Source: a virus
Taxonomy: Duplodnaviria; Heunggongvirae; Uroviricota; Caudoviricetes
Length of the DNA: 64,000 nt
Virus record (IMG/VR): IMGVR_UViG_2579779105_000001
Strand: one strand, 5' to 3'
Part shown: positions 4,515-38,015 of the stretch, one piece after another
How positions within the stretch are numbered: position 1 is the first letter of the stretch
How the letters are laid out: each line of letters opens with the position of its first letter
Position numbers and translations under genes: made by a program
Notes under the pieces: generated by a model
What the model saw: only the letters and a program-made list of their open reading frames with translations
Databases searched by the model: none
Told to the model about the DNA's origin: nothing

Positions 4515-4590
4515 TGATGGTGTAGCTCAGCGGTTAGAGCGGTTGACTGTTAATCAACGGGTCGATGGTTCAAATCCATCCACCATCGCC
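4515..4590 (+). tRNA. tRNA-Asn (anticodon GTT)
   Basis: Manual cloverleaf: acceptor GATGGTG/CACCATC, D-arm TAGCTCAGCGGTTAGAGC, anticodon loop CTGTTAA, T-loop GGTTCAAATCC, 3' CCA encoded. Confidence 0.85.
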
Positions 4591-4592
4591 AA

Positions 4593-4668
4593 TGCCGGTT
4601 TAGCTCAGTTGGTAGAGCGCCTGCCTTGTAAGCAGGATGTCAGCGGTTCGAGTCCGTTAACCGGCACC
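4593..4668 (+). tRNA. tRNA-Thr (anticodon TGT)
   Basis: Acceptor GCCGGTT/AACCGGC, anticodon stem-loop CCTGC-CTTGTAA-GCAGG, T-loop GGTTCGAGTCC, CCA encoded. Confidence 0.85.
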
Positions 4669-4677
4669 AACACAACA

Positions 4678-4750
4678 GGTAAGGGTATTTTGCGACGTCG
4701 GAGATCGCCGTGCTTGGCAGAGGGTTCGAATCCCTACGAAGTACCCTTAC
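4678..4750 (+). pseudogene. degenerate tRNA-like element
   Basis: 10-bp perfect outer stem (GGTAAGGGTA / TACCCTTACC) encloses a T-arm-like AGGGTTCGAATCCCT hairpin, but the T-arm is not adjacent to the acceptor stem and no D or anticodon arm fits. Confidence 0.3.
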
Positions 4751-4882
4751 CGTTGTGATGAAGTGCAGCTCTTTGAAGCAACCAGAAGATAAGCATCTGG
4801 CTTCACAACATAAACCGCAGGAACGACCAATAAACGGTAGTCCGTATGGAGAACACCCCGTTGAGGAAGAGGCCTGGCCGGA

Positions 4883-4993
4883 ACCGTAACCGGCACCACA
4901 ACGTTGAGAACATTGGCGTAACGGGATCATATCCCAATCTATGAATAAATGTCGCGAGGCAGCGTGACAACCAGTGTTCTCAACGTTGTGGTG
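4883..4993. repeat. 19-bp perfect inverted repeat (CACCACAACGTTGAGAACA and its reverse complement) around a 73-nt loop
   Basis: Read directly from the sequence; the loop contains a GGGATCATATCCC palindrome with a GATC site. Confidence 0.6.
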
Positions 4994-5133
4994 GATTCGC
5001 AGACTGATGCGATAGCTTTCTTGGATGTTAGGGAAATGCGGCCGCAAATCTTCCCTTTCGCGAGCGGTGATCGTCCGTAGTCCTAATTGGCTGCACCGTA
5101 TGCCGGAGATTCAGTACCGGCCACCACAACGGC

Positions 5134-5220
5134 CGGAGAGTAGGGAGCATGGTGCTCAAGCGGTCTTGAAAACCGTCCCATTGCGCAAGCGATGATGGTT
5201 CGATTCCATTACTCTCCGCC
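5134..5220 (+). tRNA. tRNA-Ser-like (anticodon TGA), class II with long variable arm; slightly non-canonical D-arm
   Basis: Acceptor GGAGAGT/ACTCTCC, anticodon arm GCGGT-CTTGAAA-ACCGT (near-identical to the E. coli tRNA-Ser(UGA) arm), T-arm GATGG-TTCGATT-CCATT, discriminator G, CCA encoded. Confidence 0.5.
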
Positions 5221-5484
5221 AGCGCAACGTTAAGAGTATTTGGCTAATTAAGCGAATGCCGGAAGCAGAACCGGATCACCAAATGCGTACAGGCGTCATC
5301 GCCGCCCAGCCAGCCAAGTGCTCTTACCATTGCGGTGAATGCGGCTAAGCGCACGCGGAACAGTTAAAACAATCCTTATTAGTGGTTAAATCAAACATCC
5401 CGGCGTTAATTGTTAACTGGTTAACGTCACCTGGAGGCACCAGGCACCGCAGCTTTTTTATTCGTTAAATAATGGAGTGAGAGG

Positions 5485-5703
5485 ATGCAGAACAATCCGA
5501 ACAAATGTCGAACGCTATGGGTGCGGCTATATATTTATGTCGTCCTCTGTTTGATTGTGTCACTGGTTCTGTATGTTTGGCTTTTGCCAAATATGATCTC
5601 ATCTGACAGCACAATACTTGTATTGTTGGGAGTCCTTCTCGCGCTCATTTACCCGGCTTTTGCAGTAGTCTTTTTTCGCAAAAAAATCCAGGAAATTGAT
5701 TAA
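5485..5703 (+). CDS. small hydrophobic membrane protein (two predicted TM helices)
   Basis: 72-aa ORF with hydrophobic segments; its stop overlaps the start of the next gene (ATTAATG). Confidence 0.45.
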   Translation: MQNNPNKCRTLWVRLYIYVVLCLIVSLVLYVWLLPNMISSDSTILVLLGVLLALIYPAFAVVFFRKKIQEID

Positions 5704-6530
5704 TGAAAAAAACGTTGATTAGTGCAGCGATTATTTTTGGTTCTTTATGTCTGACCGGATGCGACCGGGTAGAACCAGGCAATGTAGGGATCAAAGTAAA
5801 TAAGCTGGGGGATGATAAAGGTGTCGGCGAAGTAGTTGGCGTTGGTCGCTACTGGACAGGCTGGAACACAGAAGTTTATATCTTCCCGACCTTTAAGCAA
5901 ATGAAGACCTATGATGATCCGTTCAGCTTCCAAATGAGCGACGGGACAACAATTGGTTACCACATTGGTGTAGCTTACAAGGTTGATCCGGCAAAAGTCA
6001 CAACTGTATTTCAGACCTACCGCAAAGGCGTGGATGACATTACCGACACCGACCTGCGCCAGAAGATTGCCGACGCACTTAACCGACTGGCCAGCAAAAT
6101 GACCACCGACAAATTTATCGACGGTGGCAAGTCTGAACTGCTGGATGCAGCTCTTAAAGACATCCAGGAAGAAATGACGCCCATCGGTATTCAGGTAATG
6201 AGCCTCTCATATGTGGGCAAGCCGGAGTACCCGCCAACCGTTATCGACAGCATTAATGCCAAAGTCACGGCGAACCAGAAAACTCTGCAACGCGAGCAGG
6301 AAGTCAAGCAACGCGAAGCAGAAGCCAACATGCTGCGCGCAGAAGCTGCCGGACAGGCCGATGCCATTCGCACAAAAGCCCAGGCTGAAGCTGATGCCAT
6401 TCGTTTACGCGGTGAGGCTCTGCGCCAGAACCCCGGCGTTATGGAGTTGGAAGCGATCAACAAATGGAACGGAACGCTACCGCAGTATATGACCAGTAAT
6501 ACCGCTGTTCCGTTTGTTCCGGTGAAATAA
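5703..6530 (+). CDS. SPFH/band-7 (HflK/C-stomatin-like) domain lipoprotein
   Basis: Lipoprotein signal with LTGC lipobox; SPFH-like core and a C-terminal Ala/Glu/Arg-rich coiled coil (AEANMLRAEAAGQADAIRTKAQAEADAIRLRGEA). Confidence 0.6.
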   Translation: MKKTLISAAIIFGSLCLTGCDRVEPGNVGIKVNKLGDDKGVGEVVGVGRYWTGWNTEVYIFPTFKQMKTYDDPFSFQMSDGTTIGYHIGVAYKVDPAKVTTVFQTYRKGVDDITDTDLRQKIADALNRLASKMTTDKFIDGGKSELLDAALKDIQEEMTPIGIQVMSLSYVGKPEYPPTVIDSINAKVTANQKTLQREQEVKQREAEANMLRAEAAGQADAIRTKAQAEADAIRLRGEALRQNPGVMELEAINKWNGTLPQYMTSNTAVPFVPVK

Positions 6531-6543
6531 CCAAATAGAGAAC

Positions 6544-6675
6544 ATGATGGAATTTTGGACGTTTGCCGACAAGAACCCTTGGTGGACATTTTTATTTCTG
6601 CTGGTGGTTGCATATGGGGTCGAGCAAGCAGCAAAAGCCTTACGCGGTCCTGGCAAAAAGCGTAAGCGGAATTAA
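6544..6675 (+). CDS. small membrane protein (43 aa), below the ORF-track length cutoff
   Basis: Translation MMEFWTFADKNPWWTFLFLLVVAYGVEQAAKALRGPGKKRKRN: one TM segment and a basic tail, immediately downstream of the SPFH gene. Confidence 0.3.
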   Translation: MMEFWTFADKNPWWTFLFLLVVAYGVEQAAKALRGPGKKRKRN

Positions 6676-6684
6676 CAGTAATCT

Positions 6685-6760
6685 GGCCCTTTAGCTCAGT
6701 GGTTAGAGCTGGCGACTCATAATCGCACGGTCACCGGTTCAAGTCCGGTAGGGGCCACCA
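6685..6760 (+). tRNA. tRNA with CAT anticodon (Met, or Ile2 if lysidine-modified)
   Basis: Acceptor GGCCCTT/AGGGGCC with one G-U pair, D-arm TAGCTCAGTGGTTAGAGC, anticodon loop CTCATAA, T-loop GGTTCAAGTCC, CCA encoded. Confidence 0.8.
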
Positions 6761-32758: not shown

Positions 32759-32783
32759 AGGCCGCCATGTGCGGCCTTTTTTT
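32759..32783 (+). terminator. terminator-like hairpin AGGCCGC-CATGT-GCGGCCT + T7
   Basis: Read directly from the sequence; lies 28 bp upstream of the 32811 start, so it could be a leader or attenuator. Confidence 0.4.
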
Positions 32784-32810
32784 GTATCCGTCATCCGTGG
32801 AGGAAGGACA

Positions 32811-33464
32811 ATGGAAAAGATCGCAATATTCAGCCTGACCACCAGCAAGCCTCAAATGCTCACTGCAATACTGAAAGACGGTGCTCTCATTATTAACGAA
32901 GTAAAACCCCTTCCCGCGTCAGCATTGGAGCAAAAGCAAAAAATTCCTCCAGCTATAGCAGCCCTGCGGAAAAGCAAATTTAAGGTACTGGTAGACGAAA
33001 TTACGCCAACGATCTCCGCTGGCACCGGAGCAAGCCAGGTGACTCTCAAGACCCGTCATGCCGATGGCAGAGCAGCAATCATCGTCGGGATGGAAAGATA
33101 CAGAGAGTTAAAACTCCAGAAGCTATTATCCCTGCCGCAAAATAACAAAGGTGCTTTCGAAATCCCTGACTCCATCGTTGACACCGAATACAACGGTAAC
33201 GGAGAAGAAGTCTACCGGGTGAACTGGCAGGATATCAGGCCGGAGCATATTTTGATGATCCTGTGTTGCTACGCGACCGTATACCACAATGTAGCCAGTG
33301 CGGATTACGTAGAGCAGATGACCGGTACAGTCGAGAAAGAGCAAAAAACAGGCATACTCGCTTCGTTCCTGTCCATTATTGGGCATGAAAAAGTTAAAGC
33401 AGGCACCTCCCAGCCAAAGGCACTGACTGGGAAAGAAGTTGATGAAGATACCGTGATACTTTGA
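32811..33464 (+). CDS. hypothetical protein
   Basis: Start set at MEKIAIF with a GGAGGAAGG RBS. Confidence 0.5.
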   Translation: MEKIAIFSLTTSKPQMLTAILKDGALIINEVKPLPASALEQKQKIPPAIAALRKSKFKVLVDEITPTISAGTGASQVTLKTRHADGRAAIIVGMERYRELKLQKLLSLPQNNKGAFEIPDSIVDTEYNGNGEEVYRVNWQDIRPEHILMILCCYATVYHNVASADYVEQMTGTVEKEQKTGILASFLSIIGHEKVKAGTSQPKALTGKEVDEDTVIL

Positions 33465-33792
33465 TCACATTAGTAGCTTTGTTAACTCCCTCAATACCAG
33501 GTAGAAGAGTAACAAAAATATTGACGCCAGTATTTGCGTGGTCAATGAAGCGTTCATAAACAGATCAATTAGCATTAATAATTCGAAGATAACATCCATG
33601 TCATTCACTCCGTTTAATTTTTAATCTAATGCCAGCAAATGAAGCTGGCCCCCGCATAAAGATTAATGAAAGTCACTTGTCACCAGTGAGGGGATTTATG
33701 AACCACATCCCCCTGAACTGGTGTCCTGTCTGTTTCTCGCATTTCACACCCTGCATACAGTTTCCCCCAGGTTATGACTGAGAGGCTTTGTT

Positions 33793-34122
33793 ATGGGCTA
33801 TAGCAGACTCGACGATAGGTACATTGAAGACGATATTTTTCGTGCGCTGTTTCACCAGGAAATGATTAAGCGGGTATCGGAGTATCACTCTGATAATTTC
33901 CAGTACACGATAAAGATTGATGAAGTATATCGTTCAGACCTTGCAGCCTACAGGGCGTATGGCAATGCAGATTTGCGCTGGGTATTCCGGGTGCTGGTGG
34001 GCCATGAGTCAGAAATGGAAGAAATGCCCGCCGGGACCACGTTAACTCTTCCTGATGTGGCATGGCTGAGGAACAAGATCCGTGATTACGCGAGCGCGGA
34101 ACCGGAGATAGAAAATGCCTGA
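33793..34122 (+). CDS. hypothetical protein
   Basis: 109-aa ORF overlapping the next start. Confidence 0.45.
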   Translation: MGYSRLDDRYIEDDIFRALFHQEMIKRVSEYHSDNFQYTIKIDEVYRSDLAAYRAYGNADLRWVFRVLVGHESEMEEMPAGTTLTLPDVAWLRNKIRDYASAEPEIENA

Positions 34123-35308
34123 TTTCCTGAAAAAACAGGACGGGCGCTATATCACTGACGGCCTGTCCTCTAAGGACTTCACGCGTTTATTCGAGATTAT
34201 CAGGAAAGAACAAACCCGTAAGCGCCGACAAGCTCACCGGACGCTGACGCCAGGTAGACTGAGGAACAAATCCGCCGAAGATATTCTCAAGTTAGGGAAG
34301 AAAAAAGGCGGCACGTTCTTCACGCGAGACGACCTGAAAGGTTTCGAAAAGCTACGGAGTAAAACGCGCGAAAAATATGACAGCAAGACGGCTGGCATCA
34401 CATACGCCCAGCTGGTGGCATCCAGCCAGGCAATCGATATTAAGCGTGCAAATAACGCCGTGGATGACGGATCTGGTATCAAAAGAGCTACCCCCGTATC
34501 TCTTCGCCACAATGTGATTAATATCCGCGTAGAAGCATCGGATATATCCGTCCACCAGCACCATATCGTCCGGATACGCTTTGAAGAATGGGATCAGATG
34601 GTTGATGACATCGCAGAAGACGATAAATCAGCTCTCAAAATCACTAAATCACTGTGCGCCGGGCGAGTGTCTTTCGATTGTGACTGTGGTCGTCATCAAT
34701 ACTGGTATCGTTACATCGCCACTGCGGGTAACTTTGCCCTGGCACCGCCAAAAGAATACGCCTATCCAAAAGTTCGCAACCCGAACCTGCAAGGCGTCGC
34801 CTGTAAACACGTGATCCACTCAATGACGCGGTTACAGTCCGCCAGTTGGCAAATGAGTATTGCTCGTGCGCTACAAAAGGCTGCAACGCAAATTGCATTT
34901 GGTGACGATCGCCGCCGTACAACCAAACACTTCTCAAAAGAAGACGAGAAGGAGTTTAATCGCAATCGTAGCAGTAAAACGAACGTTGAAGCCGCCAAAC
35001 GCGAATGGAGACTCTATCAGAAGCGCCAGGCAGCTTTAAGTTCAAAACTGGCAAAGGACAACGGCAAGATCGACAAGCTACGTGACCAATTGACCAGGGC
35101 CAGAAAGTTGTCAGACGCACAGAAAAAACGGGCGGCTGCAAAAGAAGCGGCCTTGCAACGAGAGAAGCAGAAAAACAAGGAGCTTCAGCAACGCCTTGCC
35201 GATCAGTTCGCACTGAAGAAGCAGGCGTTCATTGATGCGCTTGTCATGGCAGGAACGTCACCTGAGCAAGCTGAAAAAATGTTTATAGAGTACGTGAAAA
35301 AAGCATAA
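34115..35308 (+). CDS. hypothetical protein with Cys/His cluster (zinc-finger-like) and basic coiled-coil C-terminus
   Basis: FDCDCGRH ... CKHVIH cluster; Lys/Arg-rich C-terminal coiled coil. Confidence 0.5.
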   Translation: MPDFLKKQDGRYITDGLSSKDFTRLFEIIRKEQTRKRRQAHRTLTPGRLRNKSAEDILKLGKKKGGTFFTRDDLKGFEKLRSKTREKYDSKTAGITYAQLVASSQAIDIKRANNAVDDGSGIKRATPVSLRHNVINIRVEASDISVHQHHIVRIRFEEWDQMVDDIAEDDKSALKITKSLCAGRVSFDCDCGRHQYWYRYIATAGNFALAPPKEYAYPKVRNPNLQGVACKHVIHSMTRLQSASWQMSIARALQKAATQIAFGDDRRRTTKHFSKEDEKEFNRNRSSKTNVEAAKREWRLYQKRQAALSSKLAKDNGKIDKLRDQLTRARKLSDAQKKRAAAKEAALQREKQKNKELQQRLADQFALKKQAFIDALVMAGTSPEQAEKMFIEYVKKA

Positions 35309-35341
35309 ACCACACATAGCCTAGTAGTTTATGCTGGGCTT

Positions 35342-36070
35342 TCATTTTTTTGAAAGATCAATTCCAGTATTATCAAATAAACTGGAAATATCAGACACCA
35401 ATTTATTAAAATGCTTGTCATCATTATAGAATGATGTGCTTTTTATAGCGACTATAAAATCACATAAATCTTGCGGAGATTCAATGCTAACACCCTTATT
35501 TTTATATAGTTCAATAATACTGCCAACATCAGTATGCAATAGTTTTATCGCACCACAAATTTCTCGCTGTTTCGTAGCTAGGTCATTAAGTTTATTTTCA
35601 TTTTCATCTAATATTTGTTTTGAATATTTAGCGTCATTGGTTGCTTGATTTAACTTTGTTTTCTTTCTTTGCAATTCTATTCTTTTATCATAATCAGCAA
35701 CTTCATCTAAATATCTTATTTCAGTGTATAATTTACTTGTTAGCTTAGATATCGTCAGTGTGAGAATAGGAGCTAATACAGATGCAAATACTCCATAAAT
35801 AAATGGGATTACAACGTGACAAACCCACGGGGGTACAATCCAATTATCAAAGAACGGTACATTACCACCAACAAAAACAATAGATAATGTATATAGGATG
35901 TCGTCCTTTGACTTTAATATAATTAAAATATCCTTCCAGTTAAGGATTAGAAAAGAAATGACAACATATGCAAAAACCTTGTTAAATATTTTATCTTTTA
36001 TTATTTCAGAAAATGATTTTAGTTCTGTTTCATTTATAGACGGATTATCTTTAACTTTTTCTGACATCAT
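35342..36070 (-). CDS. AT-rich membrane protein (three predicted TM helices plus cytoplasmic coiled coil)
   Basis: 242-aa ORF with visibly lower GC than its neighbours; hydrophobic segments near the N-terminus; Asn/Lys-rich. Confidence 0.5.
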   Translation of the reverse strand: MMSEKVKDNPSINETELKSFSEIIKDKIFNKVFAYVVISFLILNWKDILIILKSKDDILYTLSIVFVGGNVPFFDNWIVPPWVCHVVIPFIYGVFASVLAPILTLTISKLTSKLYTEIRYLDEVADYDKRIELQRKKTKLNQATNDAKYSKQILDENENKLNDLATKQREICGAIKLLHTDVGSIIELYKNKGVSIESPQDLCDFIVAIKSTSFYNDDKHFNKLVSDISSLFDNTGIDLSKK

Positions 36071-36091
36071 AGCTTATCCTGATTACTTTTA

Positions 36092-36292
36092 TTATGGATA
36101 GTTAAAAGATTCAACAGGTGATGGTGGCTGAATTGGGTAATGTTTCTTCTCGTACTCCTCAATGAGAAGACTCATAACCTCAAAGAAATCACCTTCCGGA
36201 GTATTCATTTCCGGTTCGTTATCGAACATCGGTTCGACCGCACGCAGTGCGGCCTCATAATCTTGTTCTGTACGGATAGGTTTAATGTTCAT
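36092..36292 (-). CDS. small acidic protein resembling the N-terminal region of HigA-type antitoxins
   Basis: 66 aa; IRTEQDYEAALRAVEPMF resembles the HigA N-terminal segment, recalled from memory. Confidence 0.35.
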   Translation of the reverse strand: MNIKPIRTEQDYEAALRAVEPMFDNEPEMNTPEGDFFEVMSLLIEEYEKKHYPIQPPSPVESFNYP

Positions 36293-36348
36293 TAATTACA
36301 AAGGAAAGCCCACTTGCTAAGTGGGCTTTTTGTATGTGTTTTACTATA

Positions 36349-36687
36349 TCAGGCTGCTTTTTTATTCATGTTCCGCTGAGAAATAAATTTTTCAGCAGTA
36401 TTGATACGACTTAACTCTTCCTGAACGCGCATATCATTTTCGACTTCCCACAGATCTACTGCGGTCTGAAGATTAATCCAAAAATCTACAGAAGTATCGA
36501 ATGCTTTTGCCAGGCGATATGCCATATCCATCGTTAGCTTACGATTATTATTAACAAGAGCACTTACGGTGTTACGATGAACATGAAGTATTTCTGCTAA
36601 CTCGTTGATCTTCAGCTCTAACGGCTCCAGGTATTCGTACAGCAGGATATCACCTACGGTCGTCGGTTTTCTGGTTGCCTGTTTCAT
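36349..36687 (-). CDS. higA: HigA-family antitoxin (XRE-type HTH)
   Basis: HTH LKINELAEILHVHRNTVSALVNNNRKLTMDMAYRLAKAF; directly downstream of higB. Confidence 0.65.
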   Translation of the reverse strand: MKQATRKPTTVGDILLYEYLEPLELKINELAEILHVHRNTVSALVNNNRKLTMDMAYRLAKAFDTSVDFWINLQTAVDLWEVENDMRVQEELSRINTAEKFISQRNMNKKAA

Positions 36688-36758
36688 TTTTTTGCCCTTA
36701 CTAGCGTGCGTATTAAGTGGACTCTGGTCAGAACCCGGTCCGTAACCGGGTATCTGTT

Positions 36759-37061
36759 TTAGTATTTGTGAGGGTCGAGATACAAGTCCTCGGCCTTTCC
36801 GTTAACCCACTTAAAAATTAACCTATATTGCTTATTCACCCTTACTGATGAATAGCCATTTAGCTTCCCTGACAGTTCCTCATACCGATTACCTGGTGGT
36901 GATCTTAAATCCTTACAGGTAGTTGCGGCATTGATAATGTCCAACTTCCGTGACAATGTCATATGAATATCAGGAGGTATCTTTCTATGTGGTGTTGAAA
37001 ATTCAAAAAAATCATCAAGCCACGCATCCCTGAAATCCTTTATGTTAATTTTTTTGGTCAT
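36759..37061 (-). CDS. higB: HigB toxin (RelE/ParE superfamily, killer protein)
   Basis: 100 aa with ...LRSPPGNRYEELSGKLNGYSSVRVNKQYRLIFKW ... LDPHKY signature; toxin-upstream arrangement typical of higBA. Confidence 0.65.
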   Translation of the reverse strand: MTKKINIKDFRDAWLDDFFEFSTPHRKIPPDIHMTLSRKLDIINAATTCKDLRSPPGNRYEELSGKLNGYSSVRVNKQYRLIFKWVNGKAEDLYLDPHKY

Positions 37062-37211
37062 TAGTCATTTGATCCTCCGTGATGATTACCGAATGCCATA
37101 ACTATAGCGCACCGTTGCACTGTGCGCAAGTGCATTTTATGAATTCCCCCTCCTTCATCCAAAATCACAATCTCCCGAAAATCTTCCTTTCGATACCTGA
37201 CAGATCGACCT

Positions 37212-38015
37212 TTGAGGATGCTTATGGGCCGTTTTGACGAATGGTTTGCTGACGATGCAAACCTGGCAAGTAAGGAGTCAGAACATGACAGCACGCAGAG
37301 AGAAACGCCAGCGCCGATTGAAGCGAATGCAGGAGGCGCGCCGGAACATGGCAATACCGGTTCGGATTCATTCAGCATTCTGGAAGAGCAACCCGCCGCC
37401 AAAGCTGATAGCCATGATAATTTTGCTGATAGCAACGGTGGCCTTACTCCGGATGCTGGCGAATCAGATATAGCCATACTTCCACCTTCCCTGGCTGGCA
37501 GAGAACCAACTCCACAGCTAAAAGCACGCTATAACGGGCATAAAGCCTTTAACGACCAAATCCGCGCAGACTGGATGCTGATTATTGAATCCAGCCCAGA
37601 CGCGTTTCAGGCTCTCTTATATCGACCAGATGTTGGCACATATGGGGTAGTCAGCGACGAAACAGGAGAAGAGTCATTCACTGAACTGGATAACAACCAA
37701 CGCGAACTGACTTACCAGGAACCTGAAATCGTTTATGTGCTGGATAACCCTGACGGACGTGACTCTTTCCATGCGATTGACGCAGACGGTGAGCAGGATG
37801 GCTTAACCGATGATGTTCTGATTCTGCGTATTGCAGCAAATAACGTCCCCGTCGGCTCAATTCTTGAATGGAATGAAGAGATGGTAAACGGCGTAGCCCG
37901 CCGCTGGTGGTACGTGCACCGTATTTTTAGCTACGGCACACAGCATGTTGGTTCGCTTTACTACTGCATACCTGCCAGGAATTTTGATACGACTCAAAAC
38001 GGAGTGATCGAATGA
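37212..38015 (+). CDS. hypothetical acidic protein
   Basis: 267-aa ORF, first of four coupled plus-strand genes upstream of hrdC. Confidence 0.45.
   Translation: MRMLMGRFDEWFADDANLASKESEHDSTQRETPAPIEANAGGAPEHGNTGSDSFSILEEQPAAKADSHDNFADSNGGLTPDAGESDIAILPPSLAGREPTPQLKARYNGHKAFNDQIRADWMLIIESSPDAFQALLYRPDVGTYGVVSDETGEESFTELDNNQRELTYQEPEIVYVLDNPDGRDSFHAIDADGEQDGLTDDVLILRIAANNVPVGSILEWNEEMVNGVARRWWYVHRIFSYGTQHVGSLYYCIPARNFDTTQNGVIE

What the first reader, a model, noticed from the sequence alone, without database searches (positions are those of the whole stretch)
35342..37061. AT-rich membrane protein and small acidic ORF co-oriented with a higBA module: candidate exclusion or abortive-infection island
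A 242-aa ORF with visibly lower GC than its surroundings, three predicted TM helices and an Asn/Lys-rich coiled coil lies immediately downstream of higB-higA and a 66-aa HigA-N-like ORF, all on the minus strand. The composition implies horizontal acquisition. Membrane-plus-coiled-coil proteins in prophage accessory regions are often superinfection-exclusion or Abi effectors. A palindrome (GCGCAC-CGTTGCACT-GTGCGC) upstream of higB is a likely autoregulatory operator.
Basis: partly seen in the sequence, partly recalled or inferred. Interest (0 to 1): 0.6.

Follow-up and report, generated by a model that had tools for sequence, protein, structure and literature searches.

The report
Swappable membrane-protein gene beside higBA
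A P1/D6-type plasmid-prophage of E. coli carries, wedged backwards between two tail genes, a toxin-antitoxin pair, the stump of a second antitoxin gene, and an AT-rich gene for an uncharacterised membrane protein; that last gene is swapped between near-identical plasmids like a cassette and is a reasonable but untested candidate for blocking rival phages.

Summary
All four minus-strand ORFs, the GC trough (0.28-0.32 against about 0.49) and the palindrome are at the stated coordinates.

The window is a D6-like P1-family phage-plasmid. The island lies between tail genes 25 and 7, which are 3 bp apart in P1.

The island has three modules:
- an intact higBA cassette (36300-37161) with a conserved promoter/operator block and a terminator hairpin;
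- a 66-aa stump of a YgjM-type HigA gene, which is full-length in D6 and is paired with a PD-lambda-2_A-like HigB in sibling plasmids;
- a variable cassette (35303-36102/36111) holding the 242-aa gene.

At least seven alleles of that gene (35-60% identity) occupy this slot in backbones that are 97-100% identical. The membrane half is conserved (mean 53%). The coiled coil and C-terminus are not (22-28%).

The family is confined to Enterobacteriaceae mobile elements. It sits in accessory positions of D6/P1-like, P2-like and lambdoid prophages, and beside PD-T7-4, PDC-S06, PARIS or GmrSD genes. Its members match five PHROGs, all of unknown function. It has no Pfam, PADLOC, PDB or fold relative.

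Exclusion or abortive infection is the best-supported reading, but the evidence is only circumstantial. I rate it an ordinary-to-good defence candidate, not a surprise.

The parts
35342..36070 (-). 242-aa membrane/coiled-coil protein gene ('mem'). It corresponds to D6 orf73 and is a member of phrog_8191.
   Evidence: ORF; phrog_8191 3e-122. dN/dS is 0.33 among 9 near-identical loci. The AF2 model (pLDDT 75.5) has helices 13-28, 31-43, 45-53, 58-67, one continuous helix 81-192, then 199-209 and 219-233. Hydropathy.
35296..35335 (-). Intrinsic-terminator-like hairpin plus U-run directly after the 242-aa gene. It overlaps the stop codon of tail gene 25 on the other strand.
   Evidence: Fold dG -15 kcal/mol, z -3.1. 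Sequence AGCATAAACCAC...GTGGTTTATGCTTTTTT read.
35303..36111 (.). Variable cassette: the 242-aa gene plus the last few codons of the 66-aa ORF. Identity to sibling plasmids collapses here, while the flanks stay at 97-99%.
   Evidence: blastn breakpoints at 36102/36111 and 35301-35303 in ten sibling loci; DNA alignment with D6.
36092..36292 (-). 66-aa ORF: the 5' remnant of a YgjM-type HigA antitoxin gene (D6 orf72, 119 aa). It keeps the N-terminal domain, has lost the HTH, and has no obvious Shine-Dalgarno sequence.
   Evidence: Near-identical to D6 orf72 (one mismatch) up to about codon 58, then divergent. D6 orf72 matches PD-Lambda-2_B positions 1-119/402 at 4e-43 and E. coli HigA 5IFG/5YCL at 8e-8. 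Upstream sequence read.
36305..36329 (.). Bidirectional terminator-like hairpin at the 3' end of the higBA cassette, 12 nt upstream of the 66-aa ORF's start codon.
   Evidence: Terminator scan on both strands; dG -17.9 kcal/mol, z -4.25.
36300..37161 (-). higBA cassette, including promoter/operator and terminator. It is present or absent as a unit among D6-like plasmids.
   Evidence: In loci without it, identity to the window stops at 37162 and resumes at 36299. It is at least 99% identical in 87 plasmid records.
36349..36687 (-). higA antitoxin (112 aa, HTH)
   Evidence: TIGR02607 7.9e-30; HTH_3 8.1e-11.
36759..37061 (-). higB toxin (100 aa, RelE/ParE superfamily, GraT-like)
   Evidence: PF05015 4.4e-35; PDB 6F8S_B 2.8e-14.
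37101..37134 (-). Putative higBA promoter/operator. The -10 is TATAGT (37101-37106) and the -35 is TTGCGC (37124-37129). The palindrome GCGCAC-N9-GTGCGC (37107-37127) fills the 17-nt spacer, and the overlapping repeat TGCACT-N7-AGTGCA lies at 37116-37134.
   Evidence: Sequence; inverted repeats; conserved block in a 74%-identical Salmonella homologue. The promoter assignment is my reading; it scores 8/12 and so was not listed by the scan.
34115..35308 (+). Tail gene 25 (left flank of the island)
   Evidence: 97.7% identical to D6 gp25 and 56% to P1 gp25; D6 annotation.
37212..38015 (+). Tail gene 7 (right flank of the island)
   Evidence: D6 annotation 'similar to P1 gene 7'. In P1, genes 25 and 7 are separated by 3 bp.

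Best explanation
The region is a modular, horizontally exchanged accessory island of a D6-like (P1-family) phage-plasmid. It is inserted backwards into the late tail operon between genes 25 and 7, and it has three parts.

(1) A self-contained higB-higA addiction cassette with its own operator-bearing promoter and terminator. It probably serves plasmid-prophage maintenance.

(2) A dead-end remnant of an older YgjM-type higA gene. Its cognate HigB (PD-lambda-2_A-like) survives in sibling plasmids. This remnant is probably non-functional.

(3) An AT-rich, cassette-swapped gene for an inner-membrane protein. It has a short cytoplasmic N-terminus, a conserved two-pass membrane module with a short intervening helix, a roughly 85-residue cytoplasmic coiled coil continuous with the second membrane helix, and a small variable C-terminal helical domain.

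The most likely role of this protein is a lysogen-expressed defence against other phages, either superinfection exclusion or abortive infection. In that reading the conserved membrane module is the effector, and the fast-diverging cytoplasmic coiled coil and C-terminal domain set specificity.

Shown: the anatomy, the modularity, the acquisition, the allele diversity, purifying selection, and the restriction of the family to mobile elements. Inferred: the topology, expression in the lysogen, and any anti-phage activity.
For: Island and modularity:
- P1 has genes 25 and 7 adjacent. D6 and 122 plasmid records carry the insertion.
- blastn breakpoints define a higBA cassette (36300-37161) and a variable cassette (35303-36102/36111).
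- All 22 IMG/VR loci carrying a homologue have it in this same slot. Tail genes 25 and 26 and the shared higBA/orf72 genes are mostly 96-100% identical (79-93% for genes 7/24 in L019-L021 and L024; 68-81% on the more divergent L022 backbone), while the membrane protein ranges from 35 to 100%.

Real gene:
- dN/dS is 0.33.
- The ORF is intact in nearly all alleles.
- There are 44 family representatives with conserved motifs.

Conserved versus variable parts: residues 20-125 average 53% pairwise identity, residues 126-195 average 22%, and residues 196-242 average 28%.

Accessory-gene behaviour elsewhere:
- Alone and backwards between gpV and gpS in Klebsiella P2-like prophages.
- Backwards between the replication and nin genes of a lambdoid prophage.
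- Next to ogr in a decayed P2-like prophage that carries PARIS.
- 12 nt downstream of a PD-T7-4 homologue.
- Beside PDC-S06.
- Beside a WYL regulator and GmrSD.

Composition: the gene is AT-rich relative to its flanks in all 18 loci tested.

Transcription unit: it has its own downstream terminator.

higBA part: family hits; conserved operator block. The D6-like higA-higB pair is regarded as a post-segregational killing system in PMC6799933.
Against: - No convincing promoter lies upstream of the gene in the window, so expression in the lysogen is unproven.
- dN/dS of 0.33 indicates purifying, not positive, selection within the allele. The diversity could come from swapping of old alleles rather than an arms race.
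- Some copies are truncated, frameshifted or IS-disrupted, so the gene is dispensable.
- Defence-gene neighbours are common in any mobile-element accessory region, which limits the weight of guilt by association.
Confidence: 0.45

Rival explanations
1. The membrane protein is the third, accessory component of a RelE-family toxin-antitoxin system, a tripartite TA-coupled defence in the style of PD-lambda-2 or CmdTAC. The HTH antitoxin would control or gate the membrane effector. The window would then hold a degenerate version.
For: - In the D6 slot the gene always follows a TA pair, of at least three toxin types: PF05015 HigB with TIGR02607 HigA; PF09907 HigB with YgjM-type HigA; and ParE with an HTH protein.
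- The HigB-HigA-membrane gene order also occurs at a different position in a Pseudocitrobacter P1-like element.
- The trio has moved as a unit into Klebsiella IncFIB plasmids.
- HigB2 and orf72 are homologous to PD-lambda-2 A and to the first 119 residues of B. PD-lambda-2 is a validated three-gene abortive-infection system (PMC9519451).
Against: - The family occurs without any TA in P2-like, lambdoid and island contexts.
- In the ancestral-type locus a terminator hairpin lies between higA2 and the membrane gene.
- The most common allele, the window's, has lost HigB2 and the HTH of HigA2, yet the membrane gene stays intact under purifying selection. It is in 51 complete E. coli genomes, and its protein cluster holds 535 member sequences.
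- It has no similarity to PD-lambda-2 C or to the peptidase part of B.
Confidence: 0.15
2. The protein is an accessory membrane protein with no anti-phage role. It could be a host-fitness or lysogenic-conversion factor, or a near-neutral hitchhiker that persists because it lies in a recombination-prone slot next to addiction modules.
For: - There is no link to any defence family.
- Selection is relaxed compared with neighbouring genes: dN/dS 0.33 against 0.06-0.13.
- Occasional pseudogenes exist.
- A stand-alone chromosomal copy lies among housekeeping genes in Enterobacter.
Against: - Motifs are conserved across genera at 16-30% identity.
- The gene repeatedly sits in prophage accessory slots and next to defence genes.
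- It is kept in about 59% of D6-type plasmids in complete E. coli genomes.
Confidence: 0.25
3. The protein works in the phage's own lytic cycle, as a holin-, antiholin- or spanin-like lysis factor or as a membrane-associated tail or injection accessory.
For: - It has a membrane anchor plus a coiled coil, and it lies inside a tail gene cluster.
- One family member gives a weak hit to an Rz-like spanin PHROG (0.0044).
Against: - It is oriented against the late operon and is absent from P1.
- It is flanked by terminators.
- It also occurs outside phages, in islands and in IncFIB plasmids.
- The spanin hit is in one of 31 members and lies in coiled-coil sequence.
- D6-like plasmid-prophages are reported to carry a LydA/LydB holin lysis module elsewhere in the genome (PMC6799933).
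Confidence: 0.07

Closest known systems
Prophage-encoded inner-membrane exclusion or abortive-infection proteins (P22 SieA/SieB, lambda RexB, T4 Imm, HK97 gp15). This comparison rests on my own knowledge.
   Same: It is a small membrane protein encoded by a temperate phage in an accessory ('moron') position, oriented against a late or tail operon, AT-rich, and dispensable for the phage.
   Different: There is no detectable sequence or fold similarity. All PHROG matches are to unknown-function families and the fold searches were negative. It is larger, with a long cytoplasmic coiled coil and a variable C-terminal domain. No phenotype is known.
PD-lambda-2 (Vassallo et al. 2022, PMC9519451)
   Same: Sibling plasmids have a HigB homologous to PD-lambda-2_A (2.6e-42) followed by a HigA-like gene homologous to residues 1-119 of PD-lambda-2_B (4e-43) and then a third gene. 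The window's 66-aa ORF matches PD-lambda-2_B positions 1-65.
   Different: The B homologue has no peptidase domain, the third gene is unrelated to PD-lambda-2 C, and the window lacks the A homologue altogether.
E. coli K-12 HigB-HigA (YgjN-YgjM; PDB 5IFG, 5YCL)
   Same: D6 orf72 aligns with HigA across the N-terminal domain and the HTH (8e-8). Sibling loci have the PF09907 HigB directly upstream, overlapping orf72.
   Different: In the window only the N-terminal 58 or so codons survive, followed by 8 unrelated codons. There is no HTH, no cognate toxin, and no Shine-Dalgarno sequence.
HigBA/GraTA-type type II TA of plasmids (PF05015 with TIGR02607; PDB 6F8S)
   Same: Toxin-first gene order, an HTH antitoxin, and a palindromic element in the promoter. 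It is already annotated in D6 and treated as a post-segregational killing system.
   Different: Nothing unusual. This part is already known.

Membership tests
Type II TA HigB/HigA (PF05015 toxin with TIGR02607 antitoxin) | RelE/ParE-fold HigB-like toxin | tested here: met
   PF05015 4.4e-35, above the curated cut-off; GraT 6F8S 2.8e-14.
Type II TA HigB/HigA (PF05015 toxin with TIGR02607 antitoxin) | HTH antitoxin encoded immediately downstream of the toxin (reversed TA order) | tested here: met
   TIGR02607 102.5 bits against a cut-off of 47.7.
Type II TA HigB/HigA (PF05015 toxin with TIGR02607 antitoxin) | Autoregulated promoter with a palindromic operator | tested here: inconclusive
   The palindrome fills the promoter spacer and is conserved in a 74%-identical homologue. 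Binding was not tested.
Type II TA HigB/HigA (PF05015 toxin with TIGR02607 antitoxin) | Toxicity of HigB neutralised by HigA | not testable with these tools
   Needs expression assays.
YgjM-type HigA antitoxin (for the 66-aa ORF) | N-terminal domain homologous to the HigA N-terminal domain | tested here: met
   PD-Lambda-2_B positions 1-65, 2.5e-16. Near-identical to D6 orf72 codons 1-58 (one mismatch), and orf72 aligns to 5IFG.
YgjM-type HigA antitoxin (for the 66-aa ORF) | C-terminal Xre-type HTH | tested here: not met
   No Pfam hit. The sequence diverges from orf72 before the HTH.
YgjM-type HigA antitoxin (for the 66-aa ORF) | Cognate PF09907 HigB directly upstream | tested here: not met
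   Absent in the window. It is present in L017, L022, L025 and L032.
PD-lambda-2 defence system | Three genes: HigB-like A, HigA-HTH-peptidase B, and P4-antitoxin-like C | tested here: not met
   The window has only the first 65 residues of B. The 242-aa protein hits no PADLOC model. Sibling loci have A plus a B fragment without the peptidase. System description from PMC9519451.
Known superinfection-exclusion families (SieA, SieB, Imm, Sim, RexB and others, as annotated in PHROGs) | Sequence similarity to an annotated exclusion family | tested here: not met
   The 31 family members mainly match phrog_8191, 13369, 4780, 35327 and 22645, all of unknown function. Among the 25 of 26 matched families listed, the only annotated ones are weak (E >= 0.0012), occur in one to three members each, and none is an exclusion family.
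Membrane abortive-infection effectors (generic class) | Membrane-spanning segments | tested here: met
   Hydropathy peaks at 32-52 and 82-107; helices in the AF2 model. No dedicated topology predictor was available.
Membrane abortive-infection effectors (generic class) | Infection-triggered membrane damage or growth arrest, and protection at low MOI only | not testable with these tools
   Needs infection assays.
Phage accessory gene ('moron'), as usually described: a horizontally acquired unit not needed for the lytic cycle | Absent from close relatives, of different composition, and carrying its own terminator | tested here: met
   Absent from P1. GC is 0.18 below the flanks. Terminator hairpin downstream.
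Phage accessory gene ('moron'), as usually described: a horizontally acquired unit not needed for the lytic cycle | Its own promoter, active in the lysogen | tested here: inconclusive
   No site scoring at least 9/12 lies upstream of the gene. There is only a possible extended -10 (TGATATAGT) at the higA stop codon, which is my reading.

The most novel reading that the evidence does not exclude
The membrane protein family is a new, widespread class of anti-phage effector in Enterobacteriaceae temperate phages. In this reading a conserved two-pass membrane module oligomerises through the long cytoplasmic coiled coil into a pore or channel-like assembly, and the hypervariable C-terminal domain recognises specific phage proteins. 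Its repeated placement behind RelE-family TA pairs would reflect a TA-gated, tripartite abortive-infection logic related to PD-lambda-2. The orphan HigA2 gene in D6, and its stump in the window, would be an anti-addiction relic from competition between incompatible sibling plasmids.
Probability: 0.12. Interest if true: 0.65.

Novelty: new member of a known kind. Interest (0 to 1): 0.4.

Why it matters
D6-like phage-plasmids occur in about 1.6% of complete E. coli genomes (87 of 5426). They also occur in Salmonella, Shigella and, as more divergent relatives, Enterobacter, and P1-like phage-plasmids in general have been reported to carry antibiotic-resistance genes.

The slot between tail genes 25 and 7 behaves as an exchange site for TA modules and for a fast-diversifying membrane protein. 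Nobody has characterised that protein, and its family covers five PHROGs of unknown function.

If the protein does exclude or abort phages, it would add a compact single-gene defence family carried by P1/D6-like, P2-like and lambdoid prophages. Its natural allele series, with a conserved membrane half and a variable cytoplasmic half, would be ready-made for mapping specificity.

If it does not, the locus is still a clear example of cassette replacement leaving an orphaned, truncated antitoxin gene.

Tried and rejected
- **Sequence searches on the 242-aa protein.** Pfam, NCBIfam and PADLOC gave nothing.
- **PDB profile search.** Only coiled-coil noise.
- **First AF2 run.** With 3 sequences the model was poor, at pLDDT 49.6. 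The rerun with 31 sequences was usable, at pLDDT 75.5.
- **Genome-contig scans.** They found none, and then one, relative among species-representative genomes.
- **Idea: the four genes form one operon.** Weakened by the hairpin between higA and the 66-aa ORF, and by a terminator between higA2 and the membrane gene in ancestral-type loci.
- **Idea: membrane-gene alleles co-vary with adjacent tail-gene alleles, as expected for exclusion specificity against self.** Not supported. L017 has a 37%-identical allele with 99%-identical gp7, and L019 has the same allele class with 79%-identical gp7.
- **Idea: positive selection within the window allele.** Rejected; dN/dS is 0.33.
- **A 9-mer identical to the P1 LP26 '-22 box' (AAATGACTA) overlaps the higB start.** I judged this to be chance, because no -10 element follows and about 0.5 matches are expected in 64 kb.
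- **The D6 genome paper (Gilcrease and Casjens 2018).** It is not held in the library. The P2/P4 hotspot papers do not mention this protein.
Full report
**1. What is at the coordinates**

The ORF list shows four co-oriented minus-strand ORFs:
- 242 aa at 35342-36070
- 66 aa at 36092-36292
- 112 aa at 36349-36687
- 100 aa at 36759-37061

The 100-aa protein is a HigB-like toxin (PF05015, 4.4e-35). Its closest solved relative is GraT, 6F8S. The 112-aa protein is a HigA antitoxin (TIGR02607 at 102.5 bits against a cut-off of 47.7; HTH_3).

GC falls to 0.28-0.32 across 35250-36150, against 0.44-0.53 on either side.

The palindrome GCGCAC-N9-GTGCGC is at 37107-37127 and overlaps a second inverted repeat.

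**2. Where the window comes from**

The region is 91.8% identical to Escherichia phage D6 and 99.4% identical to roughly 90-kb non-mobilizable E. coli plasmids. D6 annotates the four genes as orf70 (RelE-family toxin), orf71 and orf72 (both 'HigA family') and orf73 (hypothetical). They lie between homologues of P1 tail genes 25 and 7.

In P1 itself, genes 25 and 7 are separated by 3 bp. The roughly 1.9-kb block is therefore an insertion into the late tail operon, in the opposite orientation.

**3. The island is built of exchangeable cassettes**

A scan of IMG/VR with a family alignment returned 22 loci, and every one sits in this same slot. In tblastn comparisons, tail genes 25 and 26 and the shared higBA/orf72 genes are mostly 96-100% identical to the window. 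Genes 7 and 24 drop to 79-93% in four loci, and all flanks fall to 68-81% on the divergent L022 backbone. The membrane protein ranges from 35 to 100%.

blastn breakpoints define two units.

The first is a variable cassette from 35303 (the stop codon of gene 25) to 36102/36111. It holds the 242-aa gene.

The second is a higBA cassette at 36300-37161. In some plasmids it is replaced by a different gene. In L017 and L032 that gene is a PF09907 (YgjN-type) HigB that overlaps the start of orf72. The same is inferred for L019, L020, L023 and L024 from shared blastn breakpoints.

Other D6-like relatives carry, in the same place:
- a YgjN/YgjM-type pair (L022, and the Enterobacter plasmid L039)
- a ParE-HTH pair (L026)

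The most economical history is an ancestral arrangement higB2-higA2(orf72)-membrane gene. In the D6/window lineage, higB2 and its promoter were then replaced by the PF05015-type higBA cassette.

**4. The 66-aa ORF**

The DNA alignment with D6 has a single mismatch through about codon 58 of orf72 and then diverges. The window ORF ends after 8 unrelated codons.

D6 orf72 (119 aa) aligns with E. coli HigA (5IFG/5YCL) over both its N-terminal domain and its HTH. It also matches PD-Lambda-2_B positions 1-119 (4e-43).

The 66-aa ORF is therefore the N-terminal stump of a second antitoxin gene. It was left when a different membrane-gene allele recombined in. It has lost the HTH and has no cognate toxin.

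It begins 12 nt after a stable hairpin and has no Shine-Dalgarno sequence. I regard it as most likely non-functional. Its low dN/dS (0.12) rests on very few substitutions.

It is the commonest state: this allele is on plasmids in 51 of 5426 complete E. coli genomes, out of about 87 genomes with a D6-type gene 25.

**5. The higBA cassette**

Nothing here is unusual. It has a toxin-first order, an HTH antitoxin, a terminator-like hairpin (dG -17.9 kcal/mol, z -4.25) and a promoter-like TTGCGC-17-TATAGT whose spacer is the palindrome (my reading).

A 74%-identical higBA sits at a different position in a Salmonella Newport P1-like plasmid. It keeps the block AATGCACTTGCGCACAGTGC...GGTGCG exactly, while the neighbouring bases have diverged. 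This is a phylogenetic footprint and supports an operator/promoter role.

The literature already treats D6's higA-higB as a post-segregational killing system (PMC6799933).

**6. The 242-aa protein: is it a real gene, and what is it?**

Evidence that it is a real gene:
- It is under purifying selection (dN/dS 0.33 among nine near-identical loci, against 0.06-0.13 for most neighbours).
- It is intact in nearly all alleles.
- It belongs to a family of 44 representatives at 50% clustering.

Architecture:
- A conserved N-terminal motif, IKDKLFNKxFxYxxxSFxxxNWQxILIxxKSKxDIxxTL.
- A second hydrophobic helix, LPxxxGxxASxxxPxxT.
- A coiled coil, then a small C-terminal helical domain.
- Hydropathy shows two strong segments (32-52 and 82-107) and one weak segment.
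- The AF2 model built with 31 sequences (pLDDT 75.5) has helix 81-192 running continuously from the membrane into the coiled coil, followed by two short helices.
- The six K/R residues in 108-135, just after the second membrane helix, suggest that the coiled coil is cytoplasmic. This is an inference; no topology predictor was available.

Among the D6-slot alleles, mean pairwise identity is 53% for the membrane half, 22% for the coiled coil and 28% for the C-terminal domain.

**7. No known relative**

- Pfam, NCBIfam and PADLOC gave no match for the window protein. Three homologues scanned against PADLOC (P0024, P0039, P0031) gave only weak hits inside the coiled coil; a fourth (P0009) gave none.
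- All 31 aligned members match phrog_8191. Most also match phrog_13369 and phrog_4780, and 8-9 match phrog_35327 and phrog_22645. All five are 'unknown function'.
- Pfam hits are scattered coiled-coil noise, as are the PDB profile hits.
- Source annotations are uniformly 'hypothetical protein', in E. coli, Klebsiella, Citrobacter, Enterobacter, Kluyvera, Pantoea and Pseudocitrobacter.

**8. Context elsewhere**

With a TA pair upstream:
- The D6 slot (above).
- A Pseudocitrobacter P1-like element, at a different position.
- Klebsiella IncFIB plasmids, where the trio is nearly identical to L022 and the membrane gene is split by IS903B.

Without a TA pair:
- Klebsiella P2-like prophages, where it sits alone and backwards between gpV and gpS.
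- A lambdoid prophage, where it sits backwards between the replication and nin genes.
- A decayed P2-like prophage, just after ogr and 3-5 kb from PARIS.
- A Pantoea island, beside a PDC-S06/PrrC-like ATPase (2.6e-255).
- A mobile element where a PD-T7-4 homologue ends 12 nt upstream.
- An integrative island with a WYL regulator and GmrSD.
- A Buttiauxella island, next to a 985-aa P-loop protein.
- One stand-alone chromosomal copy in Enterobacter.

In all 18 loci tested, the gene is 0.06-0.22 lower in GC than its flanks.

**9. Interpretation**

The pattern is that of a prophage accessory gene working in conflicts between mobile elements:
- It is restricted to mobile elements.
- It is oriented backwards in late operons.
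- It is AT-rich.
- It has its own terminator.
- Its alleles are swapped as cassettes.
- It has a conserved membrane half and a variable cytoplasmic half.
- It repeatedly has defence genes as neighbours.

Exclusion or abortive infection is therefore the best explanation, and I put it at about 0.45.

The TA-coupled tripartite reading gains something from the recurrent TA-then-membrane-gene order and from the homology of HigB2 and orf72 to PD-lambda-2 A and B. It is weakened by three points:
- TA-free occurrences of the gene.
- A terminator between higA2 and the membrane gene in the ancestral-type locus.
- The window allele itself, which has lost HigB2 and the HTH while the membrane gene persists.

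A non-defence accessory role cannot be excluded. A lytic-cycle role is unlikely, given the gene's orientation, its absence from P1 and its occurrence outside phages.

**10. Verdict**

The higBA part is already known. The 66-aa ORF is a recombination scar. The 242-aa gene is an uncharacterised, hypervariable member of the broad class of prophage-encoded membrane accessory proteins.

It is a sensible candidate for a defence screen. It is not a surprising find, and nothing here shows a new kind of mechanism.

Noticed in passing
window 33594-33733 (between the mat homologue at 32769-33464 and tail gene 26 at 33793-34122): This is a second variable slot. In sibling locus L012 it holds another HigB/HigA-like pair (114-aa and 97-aa ORFs). 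L021 also has a HigA-like tblastn hit just beyond gene 26. In L023 the slot holds an IS3-family insertion. The window has only about 330 bp there.
   Followed up: partly
window 36303-36331, + strand: The hairpin at the end of the higBA cassette is an even better terminator on the + strand (13 pairs, followed by a T-rich tail, TTTTTGTATGTGTTT). It should therefore stop late transcription coming from genes 26-25 before it reaches gene 7. Genes 7-24-6-5 would then need their own late promoter in D6-like phages, and I did not find one.
   Followed up: partly
window 37062-37070: On the minus strand, the 9-mer AAATGACTA is identical to the annotated '-22 region' of the P1 late promoter LP26, and it overlaps the higB start codon. 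No -10 element follows, so it is probably chance (about 0.5 matches expected in 64 kb on both strands).
   Followed up: partly
L038 6153-8746 (Klebsiella pneumoniae IncFIB plasmid NZ_CP074520; 54 Klebsiella plasmid records match): The HigB(103 aa)-HigA(139 aa)-membrane-gene trio, nearly identical to that of the D6-like contig L022, sits on large non-phage plasmids. There the membrane gene is split by IS903B.
   Followed up: partly
L021 6811-7290: One D6-like contig has an extra 159-aa ORF of unknown function between the membrane gene and gene 25, and its orf72 is frameshifted. This is further evidence that the slot accumulates cargo.
   Followed up: no
L017 5190-5245: The promoter-like site of the ancestral higB2-higA2 pair (TTTACA-17-TACTAT) is flanked by repeated GTCCC/GGGAC palindromes. 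These are likely HigA2 operators, and they are absent from the window.
   Followed up: no
window 4516-6760: A cluster of four tRNA genes (Asn-GTT, Thr-TGT, Ser-TGA, Met-CAT) lies on the + strand, as reported for D6-like plasmid-prophages (four tRNAs, PMC6799933).
   Followed up: no
L001 7334-7693 (D6 orf72): D6 and many siblings keep a full-length orphan HigA2 without its HigB2. It could act as an anti-addiction factor against incompatible sibling plasmids that carry higB2-higA2. This is untested speculation.
   Followed up: no
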